This document shows positions 6,200 through 49,250 of a stretch of 64,000 bases of DNA, in pieces. The notes below the pieces were generated by a model. It did not search any database and was not told the DNA's origin. It saw only the letters and a program-made list of their open reading frames with translations. The DNA comes from a virus. Each line of letters opens with the position of its first letter. Position 1 is the stretch's first letter. The stretch is from positions 1 through 64,000 of IMG/VR virus record IMGVR_UViG_3300007351_000277, one strand, 5' to 3'. The position numbers were made by a program, and so were the translations under genes.

Positions 6200-9100
6200 T
6201 TGGATATCTTTGACATTCTTGAGAGTTGGGGTGAGTCCTTTAATAGGGCTCTCGATTGGGGCGAGGATGATCCTCGCCTTCACGATATCCCGACCTATAC
6301 GCCACGGGATATGGGCTATGATGGCACGCCCGAAACCGATCTCAATACTGTAAGTACACAGGACCTGTACCCTCGGGACTTCACCCCCTTCAGTGACTTT
6401 CTGTCCCAGTTAGCACCCGAGCCTGAGCCACTACCTGAACTTGAGCCAGAGTGGGTGCCCCCACAGGAAGCAGCACCCGAGCCTGTGCCTGAAATCAAGA
6501 TACCTGACTACCGGCCGTTTTCTCAGGAACCTACGGACCTTGGCGAGAAATTGTACCGTAGCATCATGAGTGGCTTCGGGGACTTCCTTGCCACATCAGC
6601 CTCAGCATCTGATCTGTTCCGTAAGGTCGTTCCGTTGCCGGAAGCACCACAGAAGCAGTTGGCCAATGCGGTGTTGGAACGCCTGGGGTTTGCACCGTTG
6701 GTCTCACAGGAATCCGTAGATATCGACGTAGCTGAGAAAACACAGGAACTGGGGGAGACCTTACGAGAAGAAAACTACGTTGAGCCTACTGAATGGACGG
6801 GATGGGAGTCACTAGCGGACCCCGAGTTTCTGGCAACCACGGGTGCCCGTAGTCTTGCTTTCGCGGCGCCCCTGATGGCTGCCAGCACCGTCGCGGCGCT
6901 AACAGCCCCGCTGTGGGTGCCAGCTGGACTTCCTGCTGGTGGCGCGGCTGCGGTATCGGTGTTGGGTGCGGTAGTGGCACCACGAGTCTTCGAGTCGCTG
7001 CTGGAAGCTGGTGGTACGTATGAGGAATCCTTGGCGCGCGGTATGAGCGATGATGAGGCTGTAGAAGCAGGAAAGAAGACCTTCATTGCCAACATGCCAT
7101 TGAGCGCACCGGATGCACTGCAGATGCTGTTGACGTTCCCCGGACTATTCAAGGCTGTACCGTTGCAGGCACGCAAGGCTGTGGTGACGAATCTCATGGG
7201 CCAGTTCGGGCAGAAGGGCGTAGGTGCTGCTAAGCTGCTGGGCGTGGCGGGTTCTGAGGCACTTGAGGAAGTAGCACAGGAAGCTATTGGCAAATGGTCG
7301 CTTGGGGACCCGGTGCAGTGGGATAAAGAGATGGAACAGGCAGCGGGCATTGGTGCGTTGCTGGGCGGTGGCATGTATGGTGGGGGCACTGCTGCACAGC
7401 GTCTTGTTAGCCAGGGTGCGCCACCGGTGGGGCTAAGCATCGAGGACGTAACCCGTGTGGACCCTAGCGAAGCGCAAAGGCAATGGAAGTCATGGCGTGC
7501 GATGATGGAGCGTGAAAATAAAGAATTTGATGTGTGGTCTTTTGGTGGGGAAGCGCCAAAACGATATCGTCCCCAAGAAACAGCACAGCTAACTCAGGAA
7601 CAGCACGAACGAGCAAGGGATACTTGGCGTAATGCGCTCATGTCAGATTTGCTGGGCGGGAAGACGGTACCAGAAAGTACAAAAGCAGAGTACATGAAGG
7701 CGCGACAGAAGCTAGAGTTTGAGGGGCGTTCCGGTAAGCCTGACAAGTCTATGAGGGAAGATTGGGGCGACCAGTATGACGAGATGGTAGATCGGGCCAA
7801 GGAATATGGTCTACCTGTGCGTGGCAAGGCTGCTCGTGCAGAGGAAGTGGCATCCCCCGTAACCACAGTTGAGGCGCCAGCGTCCTCACCCGTTCCCGAT
7901 GTTGCTGCTGGCCAGATGCCACGCTCGCCTGACTTGGCAGCGATGGAAGCAGAGACGGTGGCTAAGCAGCCTTGGGAGATGACGAGAGATGAGTGGGGCC
8001 TGAAAACAAACACACGTAAGGTTAGGTTCCAGAAAGCAAGCACAAAGGATGATGTTGTTGAGGTCTCCCCGTGGTTAGCCCTATCTAATCTGCGTGTGGG
8101 CGAGTCGTTCACTATTGGTCGAGACAAGTCTTTTACAGTCAAGTCCATTACCGATAAGACACTGACTCTTGTTGATGATAAAGGGAAGCAGTTGCGATTG
8201 GATGGATTGCCCGGCAGTCCTCGCGTCAACAGCTTCCTTCGTGATGTAGAGGACGAACTATCTATGGCCAGAACGACTCAATCGTACGAGTCAATATTCC
8301 GTCTCAATACAAAGCCCACGCCTAAGCATCCACTTCTGGTTGCACTTGAACGTGATCCGGTAATACAACACAGGGCGTTGGTAGTGCAGGCAATACGTGA
8401 AGGCAAGCCTGTTCCCCCCGAAGTGCTGGCTGACTACCCCGACCTGGCAGCGCAGTATGGCAAGGCAGAGACGGTCACGCCTACCGAGCCAGTTGCGCCC
8501 CAGCCAGAGCCAACCGTGACGCCAGCAGTCGAGACGCAGGCTGCGGAACTTCTGGACGTGACCCCCGAAGTCGCAGCAGGGGAAGAGGTGGAAGCGACAG
8601 GTGCTGCACCATTGGCACACAAGTATTGGCCGGTATGGGAACCAGTTCCTGGGCGCAAACCGTGGCGCATTCGAGACATGGAAACGGGTGAAAATATTAG
8701 GAACAAGAGCGGGAATGTGCTTGCCTTTGAGAGTGACGAGAAGGCATCCGAGCATCGCGACAAGATTGAGGCTACGTGGCGCAAGCAGCAGGGAATTGAT
8801 ATCCCGACAAACGAGCCACTGCCTGAATATGCCGAGTGGCAGAAGATGCAGCAGGCTGCTGGTGAGCCAGTCCCCACCGGAACAGCCCCAGAAGTAACCA
8901 GCGCAATTCCCGAAGGTGGCCAGCCTACTTCAGTCCAATTGGCTGCAGCAAGCGAGGCGCGCCCTGCGCCTGACTTGACACCAGAGCCTATAACGCGGCA
9001 AGAGCCTGTGGGTACGATTGATTCTGGTCAAGCTACGACCCGACCGATGGCAGAAGATGTTTCGTTGCCAGTGGACCTGCAGGGTGCCAAGCCTACATAC

Positions 9101-12100
9101 CGTTATGGCGACACGCAGTTTGACATAACGTTTGAGTCAGATGTCGATAAGGCACTTTACATCGTGCAAGACGCTGGGAAAAGCAAGTCGGATGCTAAGT
9201 ACATGACGTATTTGCGTGAGCGATTTTCCGGCCTTGACGATACTGCGATTCGGGACATGGGACGTACTCTTCGGGATAGCGTGATCAAGCCAATTGCGCA
9301 AGAGGCGCGCAAGACGGATGTGTCCGAACTGACGGTGCCACGCACCTATGCTGCTGAGCCTGTCTCGCCACCTATCATCGAGCCTGCCCCGACCTTGCCC
9401 TCGGTAGAAGAGGCAATGCCAGAGACGGTGACCGAGCCCGTGCCAACAGAAGTGACGCAGCCTGTACCTGAACTACCACAAGAACCAACGCCAGAGGAAC
9501 GCAAGGCGGCAAGGGATGCCCTGTTTGAGGAAGATACTGCTGCAGCTGGTAAGCCAGACGCACCGGCGGATTACTATGCTAAGGCGCTGGATTGGGCCAA
9601 GGCCGATGAGGACGCAACACCATTCCTGCCTAGACTGGTTAGTGCCTATCCCAACCTGAGCGATAAGCAGGTAGCGGATATCGTTAGAGAGAAGCAGGTC
9701 ATTAACAACGTGCCAGCGATGGACGTTACGCAGAAAGCGGGACGTGGGCGAAGGATCACGCAGACGCCAGCAAAGATCAACGACCCCCAGCCAGTGTTGA
9801 CCAAGGTGGACATTGACAATGCGCAGGAGACGGTAGACAATGCAGCCCCCTTTGGTAATCGGACCCATATTACGGCAGGGCTGGACGCTACCCTGATAGC
9901 GCCTAGCAAGCCATTGCTTACCAGGGTACGGGACTTCTTCTGGAACCTGAATGAAAAGTTCTTCTGGCAGGACACGTGGCTGAGCGAGCTTGAGAAAAAG
10001 GGAAAGCGAAGCCAGAAGGACCTTGCCCTTATCAATCTGGACCTTATTCCCCAGTCTGCTCTCGATATGGCTGCGGATATGGCATCGAAAGGCGTGGTGG
10101 ACGCTGGAAAGATCGCCAAGGCGTTTCCTCAACTGATTCCCCAGCAGGTCGATGCGCTGGTACAGCACTTCACAGTGAAATTGCCAGCAGAAGCGGTTGC
10201 CCGACGGACCGTGCAGCGTGGTGCAGCCAACGCTGCTGAGCGCTATCTGTCCAAGGTTGGTGGCTATATCGAACTGCTGAAAAACATACCGACGGATATT
10301 CGGGACGCACTGGATGTGTACCTGATCGCAATGGACCAAGTGGACAAGGCTGCCATCAAAAACAATCCCGACCGAAACTGGTCCTGGGGTACGGACCCCG
10401 CGCTTATCGAAAAGACCATCGACGAGCTCATCATGGGCGTGCCCGAAAGAACCGCGCAGACGATCCTGGCTCAATTGGAACCGATCCTGGGAAGTGATAT
10501 CTTTCGCCAGATGGACCAACGGGCGCTGATTGCCAAAGTAGGAAAGCCTCTTGGTGCTGACGGACTGGCAGAGGTCAAGAGGCTGGCAAACCAGCTATAC
10601 CGAATGAAGAACGAAATGCTGGAACTGAAGTACGAGACTGGTCTTATTACCAAAGAGCAGTACGATTTCTTCCATGACAACTTCCCTCACTATTCACCCA
10701 TACGGATTACCAACTACCTCAAGCAAGCGTCTGAGGGGAATCCCAAGGGGGTTACGGTTAAGAGCAATCTGATCCAGCATCTGACCGACGAGGGTACGCA
10801 GAAATCCCAAATGAGTGCGCTACAGGCATATTCCGAGATGGTACACCAGACCTTTAGTCTGGTGATGAGAAACCGAACGGCACGTGAGATAGCACGGCTG
10901 CGCTTTATGCCTGGTACGGAAGCGATAGTCAAGGAAGTTCCCATCGAGTATCAAGTGCAGGAAGGTACCAAAGAAGCCGAGTTCTACGTATTCGAGAATG
11001 GCATACGCAAGAAGATGCTGGTAATACCCGAGTGGGCCAAGGCTATTCGGATGGACGACTATGTCTTGTCGGGCGGGATGGCTACATTGGCGAAGTGGCT
11101 TGTTAGTCCCCTCAAGTGGGGCGCTACCGGTGCCAACGTGTTGTTTCTGCAGCGCAACATGATTGGCGACATGCTGACCGGATTTGTGCGTGAGGGGGTC
11201 ACGCCACGCCAGTACATGCAGGCAGTTCGGGATGTGTTTGGTAAGCAGGTGTACCTGACACAATTCGAGTTGGGCGGTGGTGGCCTTGGTGGGCATGGCT
11301 ACCACAAGTTTGACAGTATCCCTGACGAAGCCAGGGCGTTCAAGCAGTCAGTTACCAGGCTCAGTACCAAGGAAGCTCTAGCCAAGTTCATACAGGATAT
11401 GGTGACGCTCAAGCCGGTGCAGGATATAGGGCACAAGGTCGAGATGCTAACCAGAGTAGCAACGTTCATGAAGCGCTTGACCCCCGAGCAGCGAGCAGCT
11501 ATCGAGAATGGTACCATGAAAATACTGGACATTCCGGTCGAGGCTGTGGTGGCGGGCAAACGGGTGACGATGGACTTCCAGCGTGGGGGTACGGGAGCTT
11601 TGGTTCTCAACCGTTTCATACCATACTTCAACGTAGCATTTCAGGCACCGGTGCAGATCGTTCGCACCTTTACCGAGCAATCAGGACCAGTAGGCGCAAC
11701 GCTTCGGTTGGCAGCAATCGTCGGATTACCGGTTCTGCTGGCTGAGATATGGAACAGTATGTTCGATGAGTACGAGGACGTGCCTCAGTACGTGAAGAAC
11801 CGGTCTGCCATCATCATGATGCCTTCACCGGGGAAGGACCGTTTTGGTAAGGCTGTACCGGCCTACGTCGAGATACCGTTGCGTGAGTGGGCACCAGTGG
11901 GGATGACGATTCGAGAGTCTCTACGGTCCATACGTAAAGAAAACCCGGAAATGTGGCGTGATATGGTGGCGCAGACTCTGCGTGACCAACTGGGCGACGA
12001 GCGGTTTGCGCCAGTGGATAGGCTGGCCGAGGGCTGGCGCAACATGATTCCACCGGACCGAACCGAAACAGCCCTGAATGCTATCAGCGCCATCAATCCT

Positions 12101-14449
12101 GTTCAAGGTAGCTCGCTGGATAGTGCCATTATTGGTATCCTGCCGCCTATCTTGGGAACGTATTTTGAGATTCTTCTGAATAGGGACCTGTATCGTAACC
12201 GAGAGATCGTGCCGGATGATCGGAAGTATCTGCCACGTCCCGAGCAGTACACGCAGTGGACAGGTGAGTTTGCGATCCTGATGGGCAAGCAACTCAATAT
12301 GTCGCCAGCGCAGATTGAGCATCTTGTGATGGGCAACCTCGCTGGTGTGGGCAAGCAGATACTGGCTGGGGCTAACCTGGCAACACAACAACTTGTGCCT
12401 GTCAACAAGGGAACGGTGCAACCACGTGCTGGGGATTCTATATTTGCCTACTGGGTGCCAAAGGACGGGGACCCTGAATACTACACAAAGGACAAGGTTC
12501 CCGAAATAAGAATTAAGGCTGAGGCTGGTGAGGGTGCCTTGTACGTCGTATCGGCCAAGGACCGAGACGAAGCTGTATCCAAGGTCTACTCTAAGGACTT
12601 CCTGCATACCTACGGGGTAGAGACGCCTATCACGACCTTCCCGATAGTCGGTGGTATGGTAGGGGTGTTGTACCGAACCGGTGGGGGTGAGATTGACCGA
12701 CGTGCAAAAGAGGCAGTAGATCAAGAGATGGGTGAGGGTACGGTTGCGGAAACCCGACGTGGATGGGAATCTGCACGTCCCAAGCTGGATGAACTGAAAG
12801 CTGAGCAGATCAAGCTGGACGATAAGCTGTCAGCAGCGCTTATTAGCGTAGATGAATGGAAGCAGGAACGTCGTTTTCTGCAGACAAAGAGGGCTGCAAC
12901 TCTTGAAGCCATACAAGCAGTGCTGAGAAGGGCTGCGCTAACGGGTGATAAGGCTGCAATGTACAAGGAACTGCACGCCACCGTTGGTCGGGCGATTCCC
13001 GATAGGCGAGATCGAATCGAGGCGATGACGGCACTCTACATGGCGATAGAGCCAGGGGTACGTGATGACAATGAGCCGGACCTGGATGCTTTCTATGTTG
13101 CACGCAACGAGTTTCTGACGTCACTACCTGCTGCTGATCAGGAACTGGTCAAGGCGCAGTTGCGCAAGAATGCGACCCCTACTGAGTTGCGCTACTACGA
13201 GGCGCAGGACCTGTACCGACAGTATCTGCAGATACCACGTTACAAAGGGGTGGCTAGTGCCGAGAAAGCAGACGCTATGTACCAAGCACGTCGTAGGCTT
13301 GAGGAAATCGAGAACACCCTTCCGACCAATACCCCTAATCGTCGCTTGGTGGCACTGGACGCCTTGTCCAAAGTAGACGCCAGTGTTGCGTCGTTGGCCC
13401 GTGACGCATTCTTGCAGCAGGACAACTTGGATCGACGGAAGTTCTGGGATGATCATCCCTTGATGACCGAGTGGTTTGGGAAGGGCGTAACCGATAAGCC
13501 TGGACTCGCTACTGTATCGGTAGCTACCACGCTAGCGGGTCTACCCAAAGATACAGGGATCGTGCAGGCCAACGTCTACAATCAGTACCGGAACGAACTA
13601 GCTCGCCAAGAGAACGAATACTATGGGGGTGGCAGCGAGCAGGTACAGCAGCTAGTAACTGACTATGGTGCCCTGAGTACCGAACAACGAACGGCGTATC
13701 GGAAGGCGAATCCCGAAGAATACAAACTGGTTCAGTCAGAGTACGATAGGCGAGCCAAGTTGCTGGAACGTCCTGAGTTTGCTCTGTATGCTCGCTTTAT
13801 TCAGTTCCGTGACAGCATGGGGGATTACGATACCCGTAAGTTGGTGGAAAAGTTTGGAAGCAAGGATGCCAAAGAGATATTCCTGAGTGCGCTGATATCG
13901 GGTGACATTAAGCCAACGTGGGCTACGGGTACTGTGGCCTCGACGGAAGGTGCAGCAAAGCCTGCTACCACGACGACCACACGTACCACAACGACGACAG
14001 CAAAGGCTACCACTGCGTCGACGACAAAGACGACGACAACAGCGCCCAAGGTAGCCACAGCCAAGGCACCACTTACGCGTGCCGATCTGGTGGGTCAACG
14101 TACAGGGACGACTCGGCGTGACATATTCTTCACGTCGGATGGTAAGTTACGTCGGGACGTGGTGGTACGACCCGGTCTTCTGCCCGTGGCGCCACCAAAA
14201 CCAGGACGGTTTATAGCACCTGTACGAGAAGGCGCACCCTTCGACGAGACGCCGTATACCGGACCGGATAAGGAATGGGCCAAGGATTTTGAAAAGATAC
14301 ATGGTCGTCGTCCGACCTGGCTTGATTACGAGGATAGGCTTTGGTCGCTTGACTTCCTAGCTAAAAACAAAAGGCCACCCACTGACGCAGAATGGCGCGA
14401 GCAATACGGACTAAAATATCAACAGATACCGGTTAGGCTAAATGTCTGA
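6200..14449 (+). CDS. giant 2749-aa virion-associated (internal/ejection or polyvalent-type) protein
   Basis: Uninterrupted 8.25 kb ORF between portal and scaffold. It has an N-terminal acidic/Pro-rich region, a hydrophobic Ala/Gly-rich membrane-like block (SLAFAAPLMAASTVAALTAPLWVPAGLPAGGAAAVSVLGAVVAP) and several PE/PT-rich linkers. Near the C terminus there is a Thr-rich tract and then a ~60-aa module shared with the next gene. No catalytic motif recognised. Confidence 0.75.
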   Translation: MDIFDILESWGESFNRALDWGEDDPRLHDIPTYTPRDMGYDGTPETDLNTVSTQDLYPRDFTPFSDFLSQLAPEPEPLPELEPEWVPPQEAAPEPVPEIKIPDYRPFSQEPTDLGEKLYRSIMSGFGDFLATSASASDLFRKVVPLPEAPQKQLANAVLERLGFAPLVSQESVDIDVAEKTQELGETLREENYVEPTEWTGWESLADPEFLATTGARSLAFAAPLMAASTVAALTAPLWVPAGLPAGGAAAVSVLGAVVAPRVFESLLEAGGTYEESLARGMSDDEAVEAGKKTFIANMPLSAPDALQMLLTFPGLFKAVPLQARKAVVTNLMGQFGQKGVGAAKLLGVAGSEALEEVAQEAIGKWSLGDPVQWDKEMEQAAGIGALLGGGMYGGGTAAQRLVSQGAPPVGLSIEDVTRVDPSEAQRQWKSWRAMMERENKEFDVWSFGGEAPKRYRPQETAQLTQEQHERARDTWRNALMSDLLGGKTVPESTKAEYMKARQKLEFEGRSGKPDKSMREDWGDQYDEMVDRAKEYGLPVRGKAARAEEVASPVTTVEAPASSPVPDVAAGQMPRSPDLAAMEAETVAKQPWEMTRDEWGLKTNTRKVRFQKASTKDDVVEVSPWLALSNLRVGESFTIGRDKSFTVKSITDKTLTLVDDKGKQLRLDGLPGSPRVNSFLRDVEDELSMARTTQSYESIFRLNTKPTPKHPLLVALERDPVIQHRALVVQAIREGKPVPPEVLADYPDLAAQYGKAETVTPTEPVAPQPEPTVTPAVETQAAELLDVTPEVAAGEEVEATGAAPLAHKYWPVWEPVPGRKPWRIRDMETGENIRNKSGNVLAFESDEKASEHRDKIEATWRKQQGIDIPTNEPLPEYAEWQKMQQAAGEPVPTGTAPEVTSAIPEGGQPTSVQLAAASEARPAPDLTPEPITRQEPVGTIDSGQATTRPMAEDVSLPVDLQGAKPTYRYGDTQFDITFESDVDKALYIVQDAGKSKSDAKYMTYLRERFSGLDDTAIRDMGRTLRDSVIKPIAQEARKTDVSELTVPRTYAAEPVSPPIIEPAPTLPSVEEAMPETVTEPVPTEVTQPVPELPQEPTPEERKAARDALFEEDTAAAGKPDAPADYYAKALDWAKADEDATPFLPRLVSAYPNLSDKQVADIVREKQVINNVPAMDVTQKAGRGRRITQTPAKINDPQPVLTKVDIDNAQETVDNAAPFGNRTHITAGLDATLIAPSKPLLTRVRDFFWNLNEKFFWQDTWLSELEKKGKRSQKDLALINLDLIPQSALDMAADMASKGVVDAGKIAKAFPQLIPQQVDALVQHFTVKLPAEAVARRTVQRGAANAAERYLSKVGGYIELLKNIPTDIRDALDVYLIAMDQVDKAAIKNNPDRNWSWGTDPALIEKTIDELIMGVPERTAQTILAQLEPILGSDIFRQMDQRALIAKVGKPLGADGLAEVKRLANQLYRMKNEMLELKYETGLITKEQYDFFHDNFPHYSPIRITNYLKQASEGNPKGVTVKSNLIQHLTDEGTQKSQMSALQAYSEMVHQTFSLVMRNRTAREIARLRFMPGTEAIVKEVPIEYQVQEGTKEAEFYVFENGIRKKMLVIPEWAKAIRMDDYVLSGGMATLAKWLVSPLKWGATGANVLFLQRNMIGDMLTGFVREGVTPRQYMQAVRDVFGKQVYLTQFELGGGGLGGHGYHKFDSIPDEARAFKQSVTRLSTKEALAKFIQDMVTLKPVQDIGHKVEMLTRVATFMKRLTPEQRAAIENGTMKILDIPVEAVVAGKRVTMDFQRGGTGALVLNRFIPYFNVAFQAPVQIVRTFTEQSGPVGATLRLAAIVGLPVLLAEIWNSMFDEYEDVPQYVKNRSAIIMMPSPGKDRFGKAVPAYVEIPLREWAPVGMTIRESLRSIRKENPEMWRDMVAQTLRDQLGDERFAPVDRLAEGWRNMIPPDRTETALNAISAINPVQGSSLDSAIIGILPPILGTYFEILLNRDLYRNREIVPDDRKYLPRPEQYTQWTGEFAILMGKQLNMSPAQIEHLVMGNLAGVGKQILAGANLATQQLVPVNKGTVQPRAGDSIFAYWVPKDGDPEYYTKDKVPEIRIKAEAGEGALYVVSAKDRDEAVSKVYSKDFLHTYGVETPITTFPIVGGMVGVLYRTGGGEIDRRAKEAVDQEMGEGTVAETRRGWESARPKLDELKAEQIKLDDKLSAALISVDEWKQERRFLQTKRAATLEAIQAVLRRAALTGDKAAMYKELHATVGRAIPDRRDRIEAMTALYMAIEPGVRDDNEPDLDAFYVARNEFLTSLPAADQELVKAQLRKNATPTELRYYEAQDLYRQYLQIPRYKGVASAEKADAMYQARRRLEEIENTLPTNTPNRRLVALDALSKVDASVASLARDAFLQQDNLDRRKFWDDHPLMTEWFGKGVTDKPGLATVSVATTLAGLPKDTGIVQANVYNQYRNELARQENEYYGGGSEQVQQLVTDYGALSTEQRTAYRKANPEEYKLVQSEYDRRAKLLERPEFALYARFIQFRDSMGDYDTRKLVEKFGSKDAKEIFLSALISGDIKPTWATGTVASTEGAAKPATTTTTRTTTTTAKATTASTTKTTTTAPKVATAKAPLTRADLVGQRTGTTRRDIFFTSDGKLRRDVVVRPGLLPVAPPKPGRFIAPVREGAPFDETPYTGPDKEWAKDFEKIHGRRPTWLDYEDRLWSLDFLAKNKRPPTDAEWREQYGLKYQQIPVRLNV

Positions 14450-19400: not shown

Positions 19401-19426
19401 GTAGGTTGCGGTGAGGTAACAGATTG

Positions 19427-19948
19427 GATCAGGCTGGGGTAGATGTGGACACAGTGGTACGTGATGTACTAACTGCGGGCACGTCTATCCAGTTTGCCTC
19501 AACCGCTATCTCTCGTGGCCAGGTGGGGTCGGGCATGTTGTTCAACTCGGCAGAGATCAGGGAAGTTCTACGGACTATGCGTCGAAACAACGCAAATCCT
19601 GTGGAGGACGATAAGTATATCGCTTTCGTTCATCCAGACACCTGGTCGGACCTGTTGAGCGATACCGACTTCAAGAGCTTCGGGCAGCACGCACAGCCGC
19701 GTGATACCACGAACGTTCTGTCCCATGCTAACACAGTGGATTACCTTGGTATCCGGTTCGTCATGACGAGTCGGGCCACGATTCATGCGTCGCTGGGTCT
19801 GTCTGGCGCTGATGTTTACTCGACCGTGGTGGTGGGTGACCAGGCTTATGGTGTTTCCGAACTGGAGACTCAGAACCTGCGAATCTACTTCAAGCCACGG
19901 GGATCGGGTGGAACCGGTGACCCAATAGACCAGATCAGCACGCTGGGT
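19427..19948 (+). CDS. major capsid protein, exon 2 (174 codons)
   Basis: DQAGVDVDTVVRDVLTAGTSIQFAS...YIAFVHPDTWSDLLSD...GIRFVMTSRA...VYSTVVVGDQAYGVSEL...KPRGSGGTGDPIDQISTLG. There is no plausible start or RBS of its own. It continues exon 1 in phase 0. Confidence 0.85.
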
Positions 19949-20196
19949 AAAGTGATAGTAGTAATACTTGTAGCCCAGCTAAAACCTGTCAAATTCAGGG
20001 AAAGTCCCTATAGGGGGATAATCCTGAGCCAAGGCCAGCTTTATGGCTGGCAAGGTGCAACGACTAGACGGCAGGGACTCGGTTTACTGAACTGAGTCAA
20101 GGTATAGTCTGAACTCACGAGTAATCGTGAGAGGTGGCAGAAATGGCCACCCGCCTATTCAGGTGGATGCCTGTTAGGTCCATAAGTAACAGAACG
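19949..20196 (+). mobile_element. group I intron 2 (248 nt, no ORF)
   Basis: P1: exon GCTGGGT (19942-19948) pairs with guide GCCCAGC (19973-19979). Core strings are GTCAAATTCAGGGAAAGTCCC (19988-), GAGCCAAGG, GACTAGACGGCA (20062-20073) and AAGGTATAGTC. These closely resemble my recollection of the Azoarcus/Anabaena tRNA group I introns. It ends GTAACAGAACG. Confidence 0.85.
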
Positions 20197-20292: not shown

Positions 20293-20316
20293 AGGGGTCG
20301 GGGTGACTCGACCCCT
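20293..20316 (+). terminator. 8-bp GC-rich hairpin after the capsid stop (AGGGGTCG / CGACCCCT)
   Basis: Read directly. The T-run is weak or absent, so function is uncertain. Confidence 0.35.
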
Positions 20317-20344
20317 TAACAAAACAGGAAAGGGACATACTCAT

Positions 20345-20887
20345 ATGCCCAGAGTGAGCAAGGATGATAATGTCGTACAGTCTGTGATAGAAATGCAGGC
20401 TGTACCAGTTGCTGCTGATGCAGTACAGTCTGCAGAAGAGACGCAGGCTGCGCCAGTTGATGCTGACAAAGTGACTATGTTGCTAGCTAGACTAGCAGAC
20501 ATGGAAGCAAAGCTGGTAGCGCTTACAGCAGCAATCCCCCCTACCCCTCAGAACATTGGTGAAGCGCCCCCCCAAAGCAAGGGGACCAAGTGGAGTACCA
20601 ACGCCGGGGAAGTGGTGCACGGTAACAAAGTACCATTCACTCACCATGATCTGGTAGAGCGGACCGGTGAGGTCAGTTGGTACAACTGGACGCGGTTCGA
20701 TCACTGTATCGTGATGGGTGTGCCCTATCGGGTTCCTGTCAACACCTTCGTGACTACGCCAGGGATCGTCAAAGCGCATCTTGAGGAGACCGAGCACGCG
20801 CAACGTCGGCCTGATTTTGTAGAACGGACGGGGGGCCATGTAGCGACTGGTGCCTTGGAAGGTCCGCCACCGCAGCGACCAGCCTAA
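20345..20887 (+). CDS. hypothetical structural-module protein
   Basis: Track ORF is 20303..20887. I moved the start to ATG 20345 (MPRVSKDD) after AGGAAAGGGA, because GTG 20303 lies in the hairpin loop. Confidence 0.55.
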   Translation: MPRVSKDDNVVQSVIEMQAVPVAADAVQSAEETQAAPVDADKVTMLLARLADMEAKLVALTAAIPPTPQNIGEAPPQSKGTKWSTNAGEVVHGNKVPFTHHDLVERTGEVSWYNWTRFDHCIVMGVPYRVPVNTFVTTPGIVKAHLEETEHAQRRPDFVERTGGHVATGALEGPPPQRPA

Positions 20888-45889: not shown

Positions 45890-46156
45890 ATGGAAGGGGA
45901 CTTTCTGGTAGCCGGGGTATCGGCGCTGGCCATCACGATTGCGTTTGTGTTTGCGTTGCGCAGGATGTTGCATCTGACACGACAGGGTACGGTGGTGGCT
46001 GCATTCGTGATAGGCCAACTGCTTAGCGTTGGCAGTTACATGGCAGTACGTTACCCCGAGTTCACCGAGCTTTGGCAGGCCATCGTCGGTGGGCTTGTGG
46101 TGGCGCTGATGGCGATGGGCACATGGTCGGGTGGTAAGGCGCTGCAAGAGAAGTGA
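45890..46156 (+). CDS. membrane protein (three hydrophobic helices), holin/spanin-like candidate
   Basis: 88 aa: FLVAGVSALAITIAFVFAL, VVAAFVIGQLLSVGSYMAV, IVGGLVVALMAMG. Confidence 0.5.
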   Translation: MEGDFLVAGVSALAITIAFVFALRRMLHLTRQGTVVAAFVIGQLLSVGSYMAVRYPEFTELWQAIVGGLVVALMAMGTWSGGKALQEK

Positions 46157-46177
46157 TAGTGTGCCTGCAACATCCTA

Positions 46178-46206
46178 TTGACTCGTGGCGCCAGGCATGA
46201 TATATT
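46178..46206 (+). promoter_or_regulatory. sigma70-type promoter P-Y1 (TTGACT-N17-TATATT)
   Basis: Read directly. The upstream box CTGCAACATCCTA is duplicated at the second promoter. Confidence 0.65.
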
Positions 46207-46210
46207 GATG

Positions 46211-46350
46211 TTGGCAACCCCCGAGGGAAACTAATAAATAATCCGGGTCAGACCCTCTTGGTTGCTAACCCCCCTACCCGCTTCGATGAGTAGGGGCTTG
46301 GTCAAAACAAAGCAGGCACATGTGATGCATAATGTGCCTGCTTTGTTTTT
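46211..46350 (+). ncRNA. structured small RNA 1 (Y-RNA-like candidate)
   Basis: 5' TTGGCAACC (46211-46219) pairs with GGTTGCTAA (46260-46268). A second hairpin is CCCCTAC...GTAGGGG (46271-46296), followed by an intrinsic terminator. No ORF. Paralogous to RNA 2. Confidence 0.6.
46310..46350 (+). terminator. rho-independent terminator
   Basis: AAGCAGGCACAT...ATGTGCCTGCTT forms a 12-bp stem followed by TGTTTTT. Confidence 0.75.
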
Positions 46351-46366
46351 GCTCTGCAACATACTG

Positions 46367-46395
46367 TTGACTTATGGCATTAGGCATGATATATT
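46367..46395 (+). promoter_or_regulatory. sigma70-type promoter P-Y2 (TTGACT-N17-TATATT)
   Basis: Near-identical copy of P-Y1, including GGCATGATATATTGAT. Confidence 0.65.
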
Positions 46396-46399
46396 GATA

Positions 46400-46600
46400 T
46401 TGGCAACTGAGGCTGGAGGACGGGTCGAGTGTCGAGCAGCGCTTGTTATGCAATCGTCACGTCCCAAGTGCTGCTCAATGGACGTAGTGACGGACACGCA
46501 GAAGCTTGGTCCCACCATCTTGGTTGCTAATCCCCCTACTCACCTCGGTGGGTAGGCGCTTGGCGACTGTCGTAGCTTCAAAGGGGCTACGCCTAGTAAG
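46400..46600 (+). ncRNA. structured small RNA 2 (Y-RNA-like candidate; 3' end uncertain, may be the rsr leader)
   Basis: TTGGCAAC (46400-46407) pairs with GGTTGCTAA (46522-46530). Internal long-range stems are GAGCAGCGCTTG/CAAGTGCTGCTC and CGTCACGTCC/GGACGTAGTGACG. A hairpin CCTACTCACC/GGTGGGTAGG follows, then a T-loop-like hairpin CGTAGC-TTCAAAGGG-GCTACG. Confidence 0.5.
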
Positions 46601-46640
46601 GAACTACTGTATCCTGACTGGCCAGTCGCCCGAAGCACCC

Positions 46641-46668
46641 GAGGCCAGTCTTGCGCAGGACTGGCCTC
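46641..46668 (+). promoter_or_regulatory. 10-bp perfect hairpin GAGGCCAGTC/GACTGGCCTC upstream of the rsr RBS
   Basis: Read directly. It lies 22 nt upstream of ATG 46690 and may be a processing or attenuation structure. Confidence 0.4.
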
Positions 46669-46689
46669 AACTTTAGAAAGGAAACGCAG

Positions 46690-48276
46690 ATGCCCAGCAA
46701 AATCACAACCGTCTTTGGTAGTGGATCGGCACTTGAGAAGGCACCCCTGATCAACTATGAGGGTGCGCCTGCTTTCGACCGTGGCGACGAAGAGGGTCTG
46801 ATACGCACACTGATGACGGGCACGTTCGAGCCGACCTTTTACGCGGATGCCAAGACCCTGGCCAAAGATGCACAGGCCATCTTTCAGCAGTGGGCAGAGC
46901 GTGACCCCAAGTTTCTGGCCCAAGCCATTGTGTATGCTCGTAACCAGGGCTTCATGCGACTGGCCCCCATAACAGCGTTGGTGTACCTGTCGCAGGCAAA
47001 GGACAAGGTGCCCTTTTATTCAGCGTTCCGGCAAGCCATTAGGACGCCAGGGGACCTTCAGGACTTTCTGGTACTGGTTCGCGTCAGCAAGTTACGTGGC
47101 ACTGGACGGGCTGTGAAGCGTGCCTGCAACGAGTTTCTGGCTGGCCTTAGCGAGTACCATGTAATCAAATATGGCGCTGAGTCCCAGGCGTTGAGCCTGC
47201 GGGATATGTATCGCATTACCCGGCCCAAACTGGAAGGTAAGGCAAATGATCTGGCCAGGTATGTTATTGCCGGGGTCTGGACACCAGCGATGGAACAGGT
47301 TGAGTTATACGAGAGATTCAAGAGGGAGACCCACCCGGAAGAGAAGGCATGGCTGATCAATGAGGGCAGGTTGCCTCACGAAATCGTGACTGCCCACATC
47401 GGTAAGGACAAGGCGATGTGGACAAGCGTGGCTCGCCAGATGCCTATGTTTGCTTTGCTGCGCAATCTGGTCACCCTGTATCGACATGACTGCTTCGAGG
47501 ACAAGGCATTACTAGATCATGTGCTGGGGATGCTGACCAATAAGGAACGAGTGGCCAAATCCAAGCTGTTCCCATTCCGGTTTCTGGCAGCAAAGCGCAA
47601 GTGTGAGGAAGTAGGGCTTCCGCGCCTTATCCTAAGTGCACTTGAAGAAGCAGTAGAGCATTCACTGGTCAACGTCCCTGCTTTGCCTGGGCGAGTTCTG
47701 ATTGCCAACGACATATCGGGCAGCATGCAGAGTCCGATTAGTGCAACGTCGGACCTGCGTTGCTGTGATGTGGCGGGGGTACTGGCTGCTGCAATCTACC
47801 GTAAGTGTGAGGATGCAACGATCGTGTCCTTCAATCACGAGGCGCATCCCAGGGAACACCTTGGGGGACGTGGCATCCTTGAGATTGCAAATCGGATTAG
47901 CCAAGGGGATGGCGGGACTGATCTTTCGGCACCTCTCAGTTGGGCACACCGAATGAATAGGCAATTTGATACGGGCATTTTCATCACTGACTCCGAAGAT
48001 TGGGTGGCGTGGATGAAAGGCACAGAACTTACGTGGTATGGCATTCCTAGGACACTGGGGCGTGGTGCCATTGACATACTACGTTCTTATAAGAAACGGA
48101 ATCCTAATTTCAAGGCTTTTTTTCTGCAGGTACTGCCTTATGAACATGCCGTAGTACTACCATCTGAGCCTAACACGTGGTACTGCTACGGATGGAACGA
48201 TGAGGTGCTACGCTACATAGCGACTGAGGCATCTGGTGCAACGCAACTTGACACCGTGCGTAGCACGGTGTTATGA
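46690..48276 (+). CDS. rsr: Ro60-related protein Rsr (TROVE plus vWA domains)
   Basis: Track ORF is 46651..48276. ATG 46690 follows AAAGGAAA. Motifs match my recollection of Deinococcus Rsr: HVIKYGAESQALSLRDMYRITRPK, MPMFALLRNLVTLYRH, the MIDAS motif LIANDISGSM, GGTDLSAPL and IFITDSEDW. Confidence 0.92.
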   Translation: MPSKITTVFGSGSALEKAPLINYEGAPAFDRGDEEGLIRTLMTGTFEPTFYADAKTLAKDAQAIFQQWAERDPKFLAQAIVYARNQGFMRLAPITALVYLSQAKDKVPFYSAFRQAIRTPGDLQDFLVLVRVSKLRGTGRAVKRACNEFLAGLSEYHVIKYGAESQALSLRDMYRITRPKLEGKANDLARYVIAGVWTPAMEQVELYERFKRETHPEEKAWLINEGRLPHEIVTAHIGKDKAMWTSVARQMPMFALLRNLVTLYRHDCFEDKALLDHVLGMLTNKERVAKSKLFPFRFLAAKRKCEEVGLPRLILSALEEAVEHSLVNVPALPGRVLIANDISGSMQSPISATSDLRCCDVAGVLAAAIYRKCEDATIVSFNHEAHPREHLGGRGILEIANRISQGDGGTDLSAPLSWAHRMNRQFDTGIFITDSEDWVAWMKGTELTWYGIPRTLGRGAIDILRSYKKRNPNFKAFFLQVLPYEHAVVLPSEPNTWYCYGWNDEVLRYIATEASGATQLDTVRSTVL

Positions 48277-48283
48277 TGGGCAT

Positions 48284-48388
48284 GGCGAGGTGTAGATAAG
48301 CGTTACTTCAAGTTGTAACGCTAGTCCCTAACACGGACTAGCCAGTGGGTGCAAATCCCACAAAGTCGTTTATCGCTGCTTCCTTGCC
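48284..48388 (+). ncRNA. Y-RNA-like module A
   Basis: Terminal stem GGCGAGG/CCTTGCC. It carries the 5' box TGTAGATAAGCGTTACTTCAAG shared with modules B and C. Three internal hairpins are GCGTTAC-TTCAAGTT-GTAACGC, TAGTCC-CTAACAC-GGACTA and GTGGG-TGCAAAT-CCCAC. It starts 8 nt after the rsr stop. Confidence 0.5.
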
Positions 48389-48402
48389 ACTCTTAACAGC
48401 AT

Positions 48403-48471
48403 AGTGAGGTGTAGATCAGGGTTACTTCAATTTGCAGATTTGACCCGTACCTTGGTCGTCTCTTCCTCACT
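48403..48471 (+). ncRNA. Y-RNA-like module B (short, possibly degenerate)
   Basis: Terminal stem AGTGAGG/CCTCACT with the same 5' box (TGTAGATCAGGGTTACTTCAAT) and 3' box (CGTCTCTTCCTCAC). Confidence 0.35.
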
Positions 48472-48882
48472 TACCTTTTCAGCAGCCTCTGGTGAGGTGT
48501 AGTTCAGGGTTACTTCGATGGTTAATCGGGTGGTTGTGGGTTCAAGTCCCGCCACATACGTAACCCGTATGTGTAGCTCAATTGGTAGAGCACCTACGTG
48601 CCTTGAGCGCTTCTTCCTCACCTGATGACCTGCATACTCTGGTTTGTAAAGCAGTGATGCCAGGTCAGATTTTAATGCCTCAGCCAGATTGCAAACGGTG
48701 CTGATACGTGCATTGCCCCCACGCCTGCCCCGCTCTAGACGTGAGATTACCGATTGATCCACTTTGGCTTTTGCCGCTAACTGCCCCTGCGACCAGCCCC
48801 GTGCTAATCTCAATTCCCTTAAGACTGATCCGTCAAGCCTTACGTCTGTTTTGTGGGCGTTGATGCTTCCCCCTTGAAACAT
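48427..48882 (-). CDS. XRE-family HTH repressor-like protein (C-terminal extent doubtful)
   Basis: The N-terminal part LRELRLARGWSQGQLAAKAKVDQSVISRLERG is a classic cI/XRE HTH. The last ~70 codons run antisense through RNA module C and part of module B, and may be fortuitous. Confidence 0.65.
   Translation of the reverse strand: MFQGGSINAHKTDVRLDGSVLRELRLARGWSQGQLAAKAKVDQSVISRLERGRRGGNARISTVCNLAEALKSDLASLLYKPEYAGHQVRKKRSRHVGALPIELHIRVTYVAGLEPTTTRLTIEVTLNYTSPEAAEKVSEEETTKVRVKSAN
48491..48622 (+). ncRNA. YrlA-like RNA (module C) with a circularly permuted tRNA mimic
   Basis: Terminal stem GGTGAGG/CCTCACC. T-arm GTGGG-TTCAAGT-CCCGC (48536-48552). Loop-closed acceptor-like hairpin CACATACG-TAACC-CGTATGTG (48553-48573). 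D-arm TA-GCTC-AATTGGTA-GAGC-A (48574-48592). The order T-arm, closed acceptor, D-arm is the architecture described for bacterial YrlA. Confidence 0.65.
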
Positions 48883-48950
48883 GTCGATCCCCTTATTGTC
48901 ATTTTATCATAACATGAGGCATAATGCGACCAAACTGACTCCGAAATGCC

Positions 48951-48980
48951 TTGACAAGCTATGACAAAAGGCATTATAAT
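48951..48980 (+). promoter_or_regulatory. sigma70 consensus promoter (TTGACA-N18-TATAAT) for the rightward early operon
   Basis: Read directly. It is flanked and overlapped by AAGGCATT/AATGCCTT half-sites at 48945-48952, 48968-48975 and 49005-49012. Confidence 0.6.
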
Positions 48981-49010
48981 AGGGTCAGCCAAAAAGCAGG
49001 GATTAAGGCA

Positions 49011-49250
49011 TTGACAGATATTGTGACCAGACTCAAAGAACTACAACGACAACGCACCCAGGCAGAGTTTGCTGCCGAGCTGGAAATCAGCCAGGGTATG
49101 CTCAGCAAGATTTATGCCAGGAAGCGACGCATCGGCATAACGACCGCCAGAGCAATCGTCAGGCACTACCCTGACCTGACGTTACCCCTGGCTCTTTTCT
49201 TGCTATCCGATCTGGCAAGCGACAATGTGTCAGGCGCACACGGGGCCTAG
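49011..49250 (+). CDS. Cro/XRE-like HTH protein
   Basis: Track ORF is 48951..49250, but its first 20 codons are the promoter. In-frame TTG 49011 follows GGATTAAGG. HTH: QAEFAAELEISQGMLSKIYARKR. Confidence 0.6.
   Translation: MTDIVTRLKELQRQRTQAEFAAELEISQGMLSKIYARKRRIGITTARAIVRHYPDLTLPLALFLLSDLASDNVSGAHGA

What the first reader, a model, noticed from the sequence alone, without database searches (positions are those of the whole stretch)
48284..48622. Three tandem Y-like modules downstream of rsr; the third contains a circularly permuted tRNA mimic
Seen in sequence. The three units (48284-48388, 48403-48471, 48491-48622) share a terminal stem (GGYGAGG/CCTYRCC), a 5' box TGTAGWTMAGSGTTACTTCRA and a 3' box CKYYTCTTCCT. 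Unit C reads in order: T-arm GTGGG-TTCAAGT-CCCGC, an 8-bp acceptor-like stem closed by a 5-nt loop (CACATACG-TAACC-CGTATGTG), then a D-arm GCTC-AATTGGTA-GAGC. That is a tRNA whose acceptor end is capped and whose anticodon stem is opened. Established knowledge: this permuted layout was reported for the tRNA-like domain of bacterial YrlA. Unit A instead has three hairpins, two with T-loop-like heptaloops (TTCAAGT, TGCAAAT) and one with an anticodon-like loop CTAACAC. The array looks like a co-transcribed, processed set of diversified decoys.
Basis: partly seen in the sequence, partly recalled or inferred. Interest (0 to 1): 0.7.

Follow-up and report, generated by a model that had tools for sequence, protein, structure and literature searches.

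The report
Phage Ro60 gene with three Y RNAs
Just downstream of a phage-encoded Ro60 (Rsr) gene lie three small non-coding Y RNA genes, the third with the known circularly permuted tRNA-like domain of bacterial YrlA; this is a real but expected new member of a family described in 2014.

Summary
Three units (48284-48388, 48403-48471, 48491-48622, + strand) start 8 nt after the stop codon of a phage rsr/Ro60 gene. All three share one scaffold: terminal stem, GGUGUAG loop, 7-bp second stem, then the octamer GUUACUUC.

A covariance model built only from 32 related RNAs at other rsr loci finds exactly these three places in the 64-kb window. Unit C scores 108 bits (E 1e-23); B and A match on the scaffold alone (33 and 28 bits).

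Unit C has the full YrlA layout: T arm, capped 8-bp acceptor-like stem, D arm, and an A15:U48 Levitt pair. ARAGORN calls it a tRNA only after in-silico circular permutation. It falls below Rfam's YrlA cut-off (41 vs 69 bits), but so does the published mycobacteriophage ET08 YrlA (37 bits).

Units A and B are shorter Y RNAs of the YrlB kind. The closest Rsr relative has the same promoter position followed by a three-unit array. Arrays of this kind are common at phage rsr loci.

The minus-strand XRE ORF overlaps units B and C only with a non-conserved tail.

Not supported: the "T-loop" reading of unit A's first hairpin and its "anticodon-like" loop.

Verdict: new member of a known kind, modest interest.

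The parts
46690..48276 (+). rsr (Ro60 orthologue), 528 aa
   Evidence: Pfam TROVE E 1.5e-16 and vWA_Ro60 E 1.2e-14. MIDAS residues D341, S343, S345, T410 and D434 are invariant among 33 relatives. Nearest relatives are 45-54% identical, from Ktedonobacterales/Chloroflexia MAGs.
48248..48277 (+). Sigma-70-like promoter for the Y RNA array: TTGACA, 18 nt, TGnTATGAT. The -10 element overlaps the rsr stop codon (48274-76).
   Evidence: 11 of 12 consensus matches plus an extended -10 TG. It ends 7 nt before G48284, the first base of unit A. The same arrangement is present at the closest Rsr relative, L138. Function is inferred, not shown.
48284..48388 (+). Unit A: Y RNA with the family scaffold and a 58-nt module. 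The module is an 8-bp hairpin (48320-42), CA, a T-arm-like hairpin GUGGG-UGCAAAU-CCCAC (48345-61), then AAAGUC.
   Evidence: Model R1 hit 48281-48390, 28.4 bits, E 6.7e-5, scaffold only. Fold z = -5.3. L138 unit 2 has the same order (hairpin, CA, T arm, AAAG) with compensatory changes in the T stem.
48403..48471 (+). Unit B: minimal Y RNA, scaffold plus a 22-nt module
   Evidence: Model R1 hit 48400-48473, 32.8 bits, E 6e-6. Fold z = -3.3. It belongs to the 20-30-nt module class, which holds 29 of 101 unique units.
48491..48622 (+). Unit C: YrlA-type Y RNA. Scaffold, UUAC (the YUAY element), V hairpin 48516-28, junction helix GGU 48530-32 with ACC 48592-94, T arm 48536-52, capped acceptor-like stem 48553-73, D arm 48576-91.
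   Evidence: R1 hit 108.1 bits, E 1.3e-23, full length. Rfam RF02553 hit 41.1 bits, E 5e-7. RNAalifold gives 21 of 23 pairs with compensatory changes. A15:U48 fits the family covariation. ARAGORN calls a tRNA only after permutation.
48627..48674 (+). Hairpin followed by AGAUUUUAAU: a weak terminator candidate for the array
   Evidence: The hairpin appears in the minimum-free-energy fold of 48284-48700. The consensus terminator scan did not call it. Inferred only.
48427..48882 (-). XRE/cI-like repressor ORF (151 aa). Residues about 88-151 are read antisense through unit C and part of unit B.
   Evidence: HTH_3 covers residues 21-75 only. True XRE homologues stop aligning near residue 100. The tail matches only an ORF that lies antisense to another Y RNA. 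14 of 33 YrlA-like units have a stop-free antisense frame.

Best explanation
The region encodes three Y RNAs belonging to the phage's own Ro60 orthologue (Rsr).

**Transcription (inferred).** The array starts at about G48284, from a promoter whose -10 element overlaps the rsr stop codon. It runs through all three units, and the transcript is cut in the 14- and 19-nt spacers. The products would be RNAs of about 105, 69 and 132 nt.

**Rsr binding (inferred).** Each RNA pairs its own 5' and 3' ends into the same scaffold: a 7-bp terminal stem, an internal loop carrying GGUGUAG, a 7-bp second stem, then GUUACUUC. By homology with YrlA and with the Xenopus Ro-Y RNA complex, this scaffold is the Rsr-binding module. 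It would dock on the outer surface of the Rsr ring.

**The variable module.** The distal part of each RNA is the effector-binding module.
- In unit C it is an L-shaped tRNA mimic wired as a circularly permuted tRNA: the acceptor end is capped and the anticodon stem opens into the scaffold. It presents a tRNA elbow to tRNA-binding proteins.
- Units A (hairpin plus T-arm-like hairpin) and B (minimal) give the same Rsr different or no partners. They correspond to YrlB/Yrn2-type Y RNAs.

**Likely cellular role (by analogy).** The RNAs would tether or gate Rsr for decay or repair of structured RNA, such as tRNA or rRNA, during infection or stress.

**What is shown and what is not.** Shown here: sequence, conserved structure, family membership and genomic linkage. 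Inferred: the transcription start, processing, Rsr binding and the role.
For: - rsr identity.
- The same model hits the published ET08 YrlA at 55 bits. Its hits lie on the rsr strand in 27 of 27 cases and 187 of 189 cases.
- GTTACTTC occurs 219 times on the rsr strand against 9 on the other strand across 131 Rsr loci.
- A strict two-stem scaffold is found at 51% of octamer sites against 7% of random positions.
- RNAalifold on a 33-sequence MAFFT alignment predicts stem 2, the T arm, the capped acceptor-like stem and the D arm; 21 of 23 pairs carry compensatory changes.
- The Levitt pair is A:U in 16 sequences and G:C in 15 of 33; U8, G10 and A14 are invariant.
- Rfam YrlA gives E 5e-7.
- The permutation test with ARAGORN succeeds.
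- The promoter is present, and it is conserved with a three-unit array at the closest Rsr relative.
- Literature: YrlA definition, phage occurrence, and YrlA/YrlB processed from one precursor in M. smegmatis (PMC4201824). Crystal structure and the 'circularly permuted tRNA' description (10.1101/312249).
Against: - There are no expression, processing or binding data for this phage.
- Unit C is below Rfam's gathering score (41.1 vs 69 bits).
- The published 5' motif GNCGAAN0-1G is matched only loosely (GGUGUAG).
- No intrinsic terminator was called after unit C.
- Units A and B match the model through the scaffold only, at modest scores.
- No relative is close enough to test covariation within each individual unit.
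- The cellular role of any YrlA is still unknown in the literature.
Confidence: 0.85

Rival explanations
1. The conservation reflects the minus-strand XRE protein: the region is simply the C-terminal coding part of the repressor gene, and the RNA folds are incidental.
For: A 151-aa ORF with an N-terminal HTH_3 domain runs without a stop through unit C and into unit B.
Against: - The HTH ends at residue 75, and XRE homologues lose similarity by about residue 100.
- The only match to the tail (P0119) is itself an ORF antisense to another Y RNA: its GLEPTTTRLTIEVT is the reverse translation of the T arm and GUUACUUC.
- The same RNA is conserved at more than 100 rsr loci that have no XRE gene.
- 14 of 33 such units have an open antisense frame by chance.
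- Unit A lies wholly outside the ORF.
Confidence: 0.02
2. The units are decayed tRNA gene fragments or a tRNA-derived phage attachment site, not functional RNAs.
For: Unit C carries near-canonical T and D arms. Many phage rsr loci sit in tRNA gene clusters.
Against: - The order T arm, capped acceptor stem, D arm is fixed across 33 diverse sequences, with compensatory changes and a covarying 15:48 pair. Pseudogenes would not maintain this.
- The element is always on the rsr strand and adjacent to rsr.
- The window has no tRNA gene at all.
Confidence: 0.03
3. Only unit C is a working Y RNA. Units A and B are degenerate duplicates, or merely 3'-UTR/processing structures that stabilise the rsr transcript.
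For: A and B score only 28-33 bits and match the model through the scaffold alone. Unit A can fold the conserved octamer into a private hairpin.
Against: - Both stems of A and B are intact and differ from C by compensatory double changes.
- The short (20-30 nt) and intermediate module classes recur widely: 29 and 19 of 101 unique units.
- The nearest Rsr relative also carries a minimal unit and a hairpin-plus-T-arm unit.
- Known species have such second Y RNAs (YrlB, Yrn2), which Rsr binds (PMC4201824).
Confidence: 0.1

Closest known systems
YrlA (Rfam RF02553; Chen et al. 2014, PMC4201824; crystal structure in Wang et al. 2018, 10.1101/312249)
   Same: - Lies next to rsr on the same strand.
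- The 5' and 3' ends pair into a two-stem Rsr-binding module.
- YUAY (here UUAC) follows stem 2, then a V hairpin.
- T arm, loop-capped acceptor-like stem and D arm come in that order.
- U8, A14, G18G19, A21 and a covarying 15:48 pair are present.
- The family is also reported in phages.
   Different: - The 5' motif is GGUGUAG rather than GNCGAAN0-1G.
- The score is below Rfam's cut-off, as it is for the published phage ET08 YrlA.
- The acceptor-like stem is 8 bp here (7 conserved in the clade), longer than in Salmonella and like M. smegmatis.
- The host lineage is probably Chloroflexota, and rsr is not in an rtcBA operon.
YrlB / Yrn2 (second, shorter bacterial Y RNAs)
   Same: - They are additional Rsr-linked RNAs encoded beside YrlA, with a small or partial module.
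- M. smegmatis YrlB has a T arm and is processed from one precursor with YrlA. Units A and B fit this description.
   Different: - No sequence homology to those RNAs could be tested.
- Here there are two such units, and they share the complete scaffold sequence of unit C.
Metazoan Y RNAs bound by Ro60
   Same: They are modular: a terminal stem with a conserved Ro60-binding site plus a variable effector module. They occur as several paralogues per genome.
   Different: They have no tRNA-like domain, a different binding motif (GGUCCGA helix), and are made by Pol III.
Other tRNA mimics (tmRNA tRNA-like domain, TYMV TLS) and permuted tRNA genes
   Same: They share the L-shaped fold with T-loop/D-loop elbow interactions. 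The permuted gene order is also shared with permuted tRNA genes.
   Different: Here the acceptor end is closed by a loop, there is no CCA end and no anticodon loop, so aminoacylation and decoding are not expected.

Membership tests
YrlA | Encoded within about 4 kb of a Ro60/Rsr gene on the same strand | tested here: met
   Unit C starts 215 nt after the rsr stop, on the + strand.
YrlA | 5' motif GNCGAAN0-1G (the presumed Rsr contact) | tested here: inconclusive
   The window has GGUGUAG at the equivalent place (end of stem 1, the loop, first G of stem 2). G1, G4, A6 and G7 match; C3 is U and A5 is U. ET08 YrlA has GCCGAGAG at the same position. Clade relatives show YGNAG variants.
YrlA | Conserved YUAY after the second stem, beginning the V region | tested here: met
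   UUAC lies within GUUACUUC at 48509-16. The octamer is invariant in 33 aligned relatives. ET08 has GUUACCUC.
YrlA | T arm with a tRNA-type T loop | tested here: met
   GUGGG-UUCAAGU-CCCGC at 48536-52. Four of five T-stem pairs covary in the clade.
YrlA | Loop-capped acceptor-like stem between the T and D arms (permuted order) | tested here: met
   An 8-bp stem at 48553-73 abuts the T stem. Seven pairs are conserved, each with 9-20 compensatory cases. ARAGORN calls a tRNA only after permutation.
YrlA | D arm with U8, A14, G18G19, A21 and a Levitt 15:48 pair | tested here: met
   UA-GCUC-AAUUGGUA-GAGC at 48574-91, with A15:U48. In the clade the pair is A:U 16 times, G:C 15 times and other twice; U8 and A14 are invariant.
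YrlA | Score at or above the Rfam RF02553 gathering threshold (69 bits) | tested here: not met
   41.1 bits, E 5e-7. Calibration: the published ET08 YrlA scores 37.4 bits, so this threshold excludes accepted phage members. The alignment also appears to place Rfam's stem 1 on this RNA's stem 2.
YrlA | Bound by Rsr; modified by TruB and DusA | not testable with these tools
   Needs immunoprecipitation and modification mapping.
Short Y RNAs (YrlB/Yrn2-like), units A and B | Same Rsr-binding scaffold as the neighbouring YrlA, a small module, and location beside rsr | tested here: met
   R1 scaffold hits at E 6e-6 and 6.7e-5. Paralogue compensatory changes are visible in the sequence. The same classes occur in relatives.
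tRNA | Detected as a cloverleaf in the native order | tested here: not met
   ARAGORN finds no gene in the window. There is no Rfam tRNA hit, even at E up to 10, in 46100-48900.

The most novel reading that the evidence does not exclude
The shared scaffold may be a general display platform. Phage rsr loci would then carry arrays of interchangeable Y RNA cassettes that give one Rsr ring a set of different partners or decoy targets.

- Three cassettes are present here. Other IMG/VR contigs carry up to about eight or nine model hits.
- The modules range from minimal, through T arm only, to the permuted tRNA mimic. One scaffold (L077) even encloses a complete non-permuted tRNA.

In this phage the array also runs convergently into, and antisense to, the 3' end of the cI-like repressor gene. 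That could couple Y RNA expression to the lysis-lysogeny switch. The scale and modularity of such phage arrays did not turn up in the papers found here.
Probability: 0.25. Interest if true: 0.55.

Novelty: new member of a known kind. Interest (0 to 1): 0.3.

Why it matters
- **New lineage.** It adds a divergent example of the Ro60/Y RNA system in a phage. Its Rsr is at most 54% identical to any relative found, and the host is probably a member of the Chloroflexota.
- **Database gap.** Rfam's YrlA threshold misses phage members, including a published one.
- **A practical marker.** The survey yielded the octamer GUUACUUC plus the two-stem scaffold. This marker finds both YrlA-type and short Y RNAs at most phage rsr loci (71 of 80 IMG/VR loci).
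- **Biology.** What a phage gains from Rsr and tRNA-like Y RNAs is unknown. Candidates are RNA decay, RNA repair, or protection from tRNA-targeting nucleases. A compact cassette of three RNAs plus one protein, with its own promoter, is a convenient test object.

Tried and rejected
**Searches that found no close relatives.**
- blastn of the locus against cultured phages found nothing.
- An exact 5'-box pattern scan of IMG/VR found nothing.
- The metagenome scan with Rsr returned only relatives of 41% identity or less.
- The source contig could not be retrieved through the XRE protein.
- As a result, covariation could be tested only at family level, not per unit.

**Methods that were too noisy.**
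- RNAduplex-based unit finding was noisy.
- A loose two-stem criterion was unspecific: 86 of 220 random positions passed. It was replaced by a strict geometry and then by a covariance model.
- MAFFT could not register stem 1 because the loop lengths vary. Stem 1 therefore rests on the strict-geometry enrichment and the paralogue comparison.

**Resources not available.** The supplementary alignments of Chen et al. 2014 are not held.

**Readings considered and rejected.**
- Unit A as a non-permuted cloverleaf, with stem 2 as acceptor and GUUAC/GUAAC as D arm. There is no ARAGORN or Rfam tRNA signal, the GUAAC complement is private to this unit, and the middle stem is 8 bp.
- My first guess that the terminal-stem strand GGYGAGG equals GNCGAA. 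The ET08 comparison places that motif in the loop instead.
- The two upstream RNAs as further Y RNAs. They have no octamer, no R1 hit and no relatives.

Full report
**Setting.** The window is a tailed-phage genome. It encodes a large terminase, portal, holin, SLT lysozyme and sliding clamp, and nearly all genes are on the + strand. Between the lysis genes and a divergent cI/cro-like pair lies a 528-aa gene at 46690-48276 with TROVE and Ro60-vWA domains, which identifies it as rsr. Its MIDAS residues are invariant among 33 relatives. The nearest Rsr proteins are only 45-54% identical and come from Ktedonobacterales/Chloroflexia MAGs and a few IMG/VR contigs. Cultured phages give less than 30% identity. 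The host assignment to Chloroflexota is an inference from these relatives.

All three units share one scaffold:
- stem 1 (7 bp);
- the loop UGUA;
- stem 2 (7 bp);
- the octamer GUUACUUC;
- a variable module of 58, 22 or 85 nt;
- the 3' strand of stem 2;
- a 7-nt loop;
- the 3' strand of stem 1.

Between the paralogues, pairing survives double changes. In stem 1, position 1 is G-C or A-U and position 3 is C-G or U-A. In stem 2, position 2 is A-U or U·G, position 4 is A-U or C-G and position 7 is C-G or G-C. The G·U pairs argue for the + strand.

**Comparative evidence.** I collected 131 further rsr loci, 894 kb in total.
- The octamer GTTACTTC occurs 219 times on the rsr strand and 9 times on the other strand. 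In the window it occurs on the + strand only at the three units.
- A strict two-stem geometry abutting the octamer is present at 112 of 220 octamer sites. At random positions it is present at 144 of 2000.
- Module lengths are bimodal. One class is about 20-30 nt and has no T loop. The other is about 80-90 nt, and 42 of 45 of its members have a T loop. An intermediate class lies between them. Units B, C and A fall in these three classes.

A MAFFT alignment of 33 long units, followed by RNAalifold, predicts stem 2, a 5-bp T arm, an abutting 7-bp capped stem and a 4-bp D arm. Of the 23 predicted pairs, 21 carry compensatory changes. The tertiary Levitt pair covaries: A15:U48 16 times, G15:C48 15 times, and 2 exceptions. 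U8, G10 and A14 are invariant. Unit C has A15:U48, U8, A14, G18G19, A21 and a canonical T loop.

**Independent model.** I built covariance model R1 from 32 of these RNAs, leaving the window out. In the 64-kb window, both strands, it finds three hits and nothing else:

| Unit | Coordinates | Bits | E-value | Match |
|---|---|---|---|---|
| C | 48488-48625 | 108.1 | 1.3e-23 | full length |
| B | 48400-48473 | 32.8 | 6e-6 | scaffold, module skipped |
| A | 48281-48390 | 28.4 | 6.7e-5 | scaffold, module skipped |

Across the other loci, 27 of 27 hits and 187 of 189 hits lie on the rsr strand. Of 80 IMG/VR loci, 71 have at least one hit. Several have six to nine.

**Link to the known family.** Chen et al. 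2014 (PMC4201824) defined YrlA by these features:
- location near rsr, on the same strand;
- a 5' GNCGAAN0-1G motif;
- a YUAY element starting the V region;
- T, acceptor-like (AS) and D stem-loops, with tRNA tertiary pairs including a covarying 15:48.

They reported YrlA in 254 bacteria and 22 phages. They also showed that M. smegmatis YrlA and YrlB are cut from one precursor, and that YrlB has a T arm. Wang et al. 2018 (10.1101/312249) solved the tRNA-like domain. [quoted passage not shown]

Rfam's YrlA model hits unit C at 41.1 bits (E 5e-7 in a 2.8-kb search). This is below the gathering score of 69. As a calibration, the YrlA of mycobacteriophage ET08, a sequence named in the 2014 paper, scores only 37.4 bits on the same model, while R1 gives it 55 bits. 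ET08 carries GUUACCUC after its second stem and GCCGAGAG in the 5' loop. This places the window's UUAC as the YUAY element and GGUGUAG as a loose variant of GNCGAA. The Rfam alignment appears shifted by one helix at the 5' end, which would explain part of the low score. The shift is my reading of the alignment.

ARAGORN finds no tRNA in the native sequence. When the cap loop is opened and the natural ends are joined, it calls a tRNA with an intron.

**Units A and B.**
- Unit B is a minimal Y RNA.
- Unit A carries an 8-bp hairpin with a 7-nt loop, then CA, then a T-arm-like hairpin. That hairpin has a G53-C61 closing pair and a loop, UGCAAAU, that keeps U54 and A58.

The closest Rsr relative (L138/L140, 52-54% identity) has the same layout. 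A TTGACA/TGnTATGAT promoter overlaps the rsr stop codon, and three units follow: one minimal, one hairpin-CA-T-arm-AAAG unit with two compensatory T-stem changes relative to unit A, and one degenerate tRNA-like unit.

- The first hairpin of unit A is the family octamer pairing with a downstream GUAAC. Only 1 of 197 other units has such a complement. It may be an alternative fold, but it is not a T loop.
- The 'anticodon-like' loop is a tetraloop in L138.

**Transcription.** One promoter-like site (11 of 12 matches plus an extended -10) ends 7 nt before G48284. None precedes B or C. The whole array folds as three independent domains, followed by a hairpin and the tract AGAUUUUAAU. The terminator scan did not call that hairpin. 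Co-transcription and processing are therefore inferred, by analogy with M. smegmatis.

**The minus-strand ORF.** The XRE gene (48882 to 48427) has its HTH at residues 21-75. Residues from about 88 onwards are read antisense through unit C and part of unit B.
- Real XRE homologues align only up to about residue 100.
- The only match to the tail is an ORF antisense to another Y RNA.
- 14 of 33 YrlA-like units have a stop-free antisense frame.

Convergent transcription of the array and the repressor gene remains possible and is untested.

**Mechanism.** By homology, the scaffold binds the outer face of the Rsr ring and the module recruits or blocks partners.
- In D. radiodurans the Y RNA tethers Rsr to PNPase.
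- For YrlA the partner is unknown and is thought to bind the tRNA elbow.
- A role as a competitive inhibitor of an anticodon nuclease has been proposed (PMC7790460).
- The 7-8-bp acceptor-like stem makes RNase P cleavage conceivable, as in M. smegmatis. This is an inference.

**Verdict.** This is a new member of a known kind. Interest is modest: a specialist would expect Y RNAs beside a phage rsr gene. The broader pattern seen in passing, large modular arrays at phage rsr loci, is the more interesting lead.

Noticed in passing
window 46165-46352 and 46354-46689 (+): Two paralogous promoter-plus-RNA units lie upstream of rsr, with promoters at 46178-46206 and 46367-46395. They share the 5' end UUGGCAAC, the 3' box CUUGGUUGCUAA and a following hairpin, but have different inserts (about 40 vs about 110 nt). 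The first ends in a strong terminator hairpin (46304-46349). The second continues as the roughly 290-nt leader of rsr. There is no Rfam match, no R1 hit, and no copy in the other Rsr loci or in IMG/VR. Function is unknown; it could be a small RNA derived from a duplicated leader.
   Followed up: partly
window 19881-20131 (+): A group I intron (RF00028, 86.3 bits, E 1.4e-20) lies between or within the ORFs 19424-20095 and 20303-20887. It probably splits a phage gene.
   Followed up: no
L077:853-992: A Y RNA scaffold (stem 1, stem 2, GUUACUUC) encloses a complete, non-permuted tRNA. ARAGORN calls it tRNA-Leu(CAG) at 883-958.
   Followed up: partly
L073, L114, L062, L066, L128 (IMG/VR rsr loci): Up to about eight or nine Y-RNA-like model hits lie next to one rsr gene, mixing the minimal, T-arm-only and tRNA-like classes. 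Many of these loci are embedded in phage tRNA gene clusters.
   Followed up: partly
L009, L012, L016, L134 (Herpetosiphon-type loci), upstream of rsr: The Rfam tRNA model gives full-length 'tRNA' hits of 108-149 nt that span GUUACUUC-containing Y units. They probably join the D arm of one permuted unit to the T arm of the next, which could cause mis-annotation.
   Followed up: no
L007:30-2941: A MAG contig labelled Elusimicrobia carries a bacterial RNase P RNA gene (122 bits) and seven tRNA genes within 3 kb upstream of its rsr gene. R1 found no Y RNA there at E <= 0.001.
   Followed up: no
window 48427-49250: A divergent cI/cro-like pair: the XRE repressor on the minus strand, and an HTH_3 ORF on the + strand behind a perfect TTGACA-18-TATAAT promoter at 48951-48980. 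This suggests a temperate phage, with the rsr/Y cassette placed like a moron next to the immunity region.
   Followed up: no
window 6200-14449 (+): A single ORF of 2749 aa lies in the structural-gene region. It was not examined.
   Followed up: no
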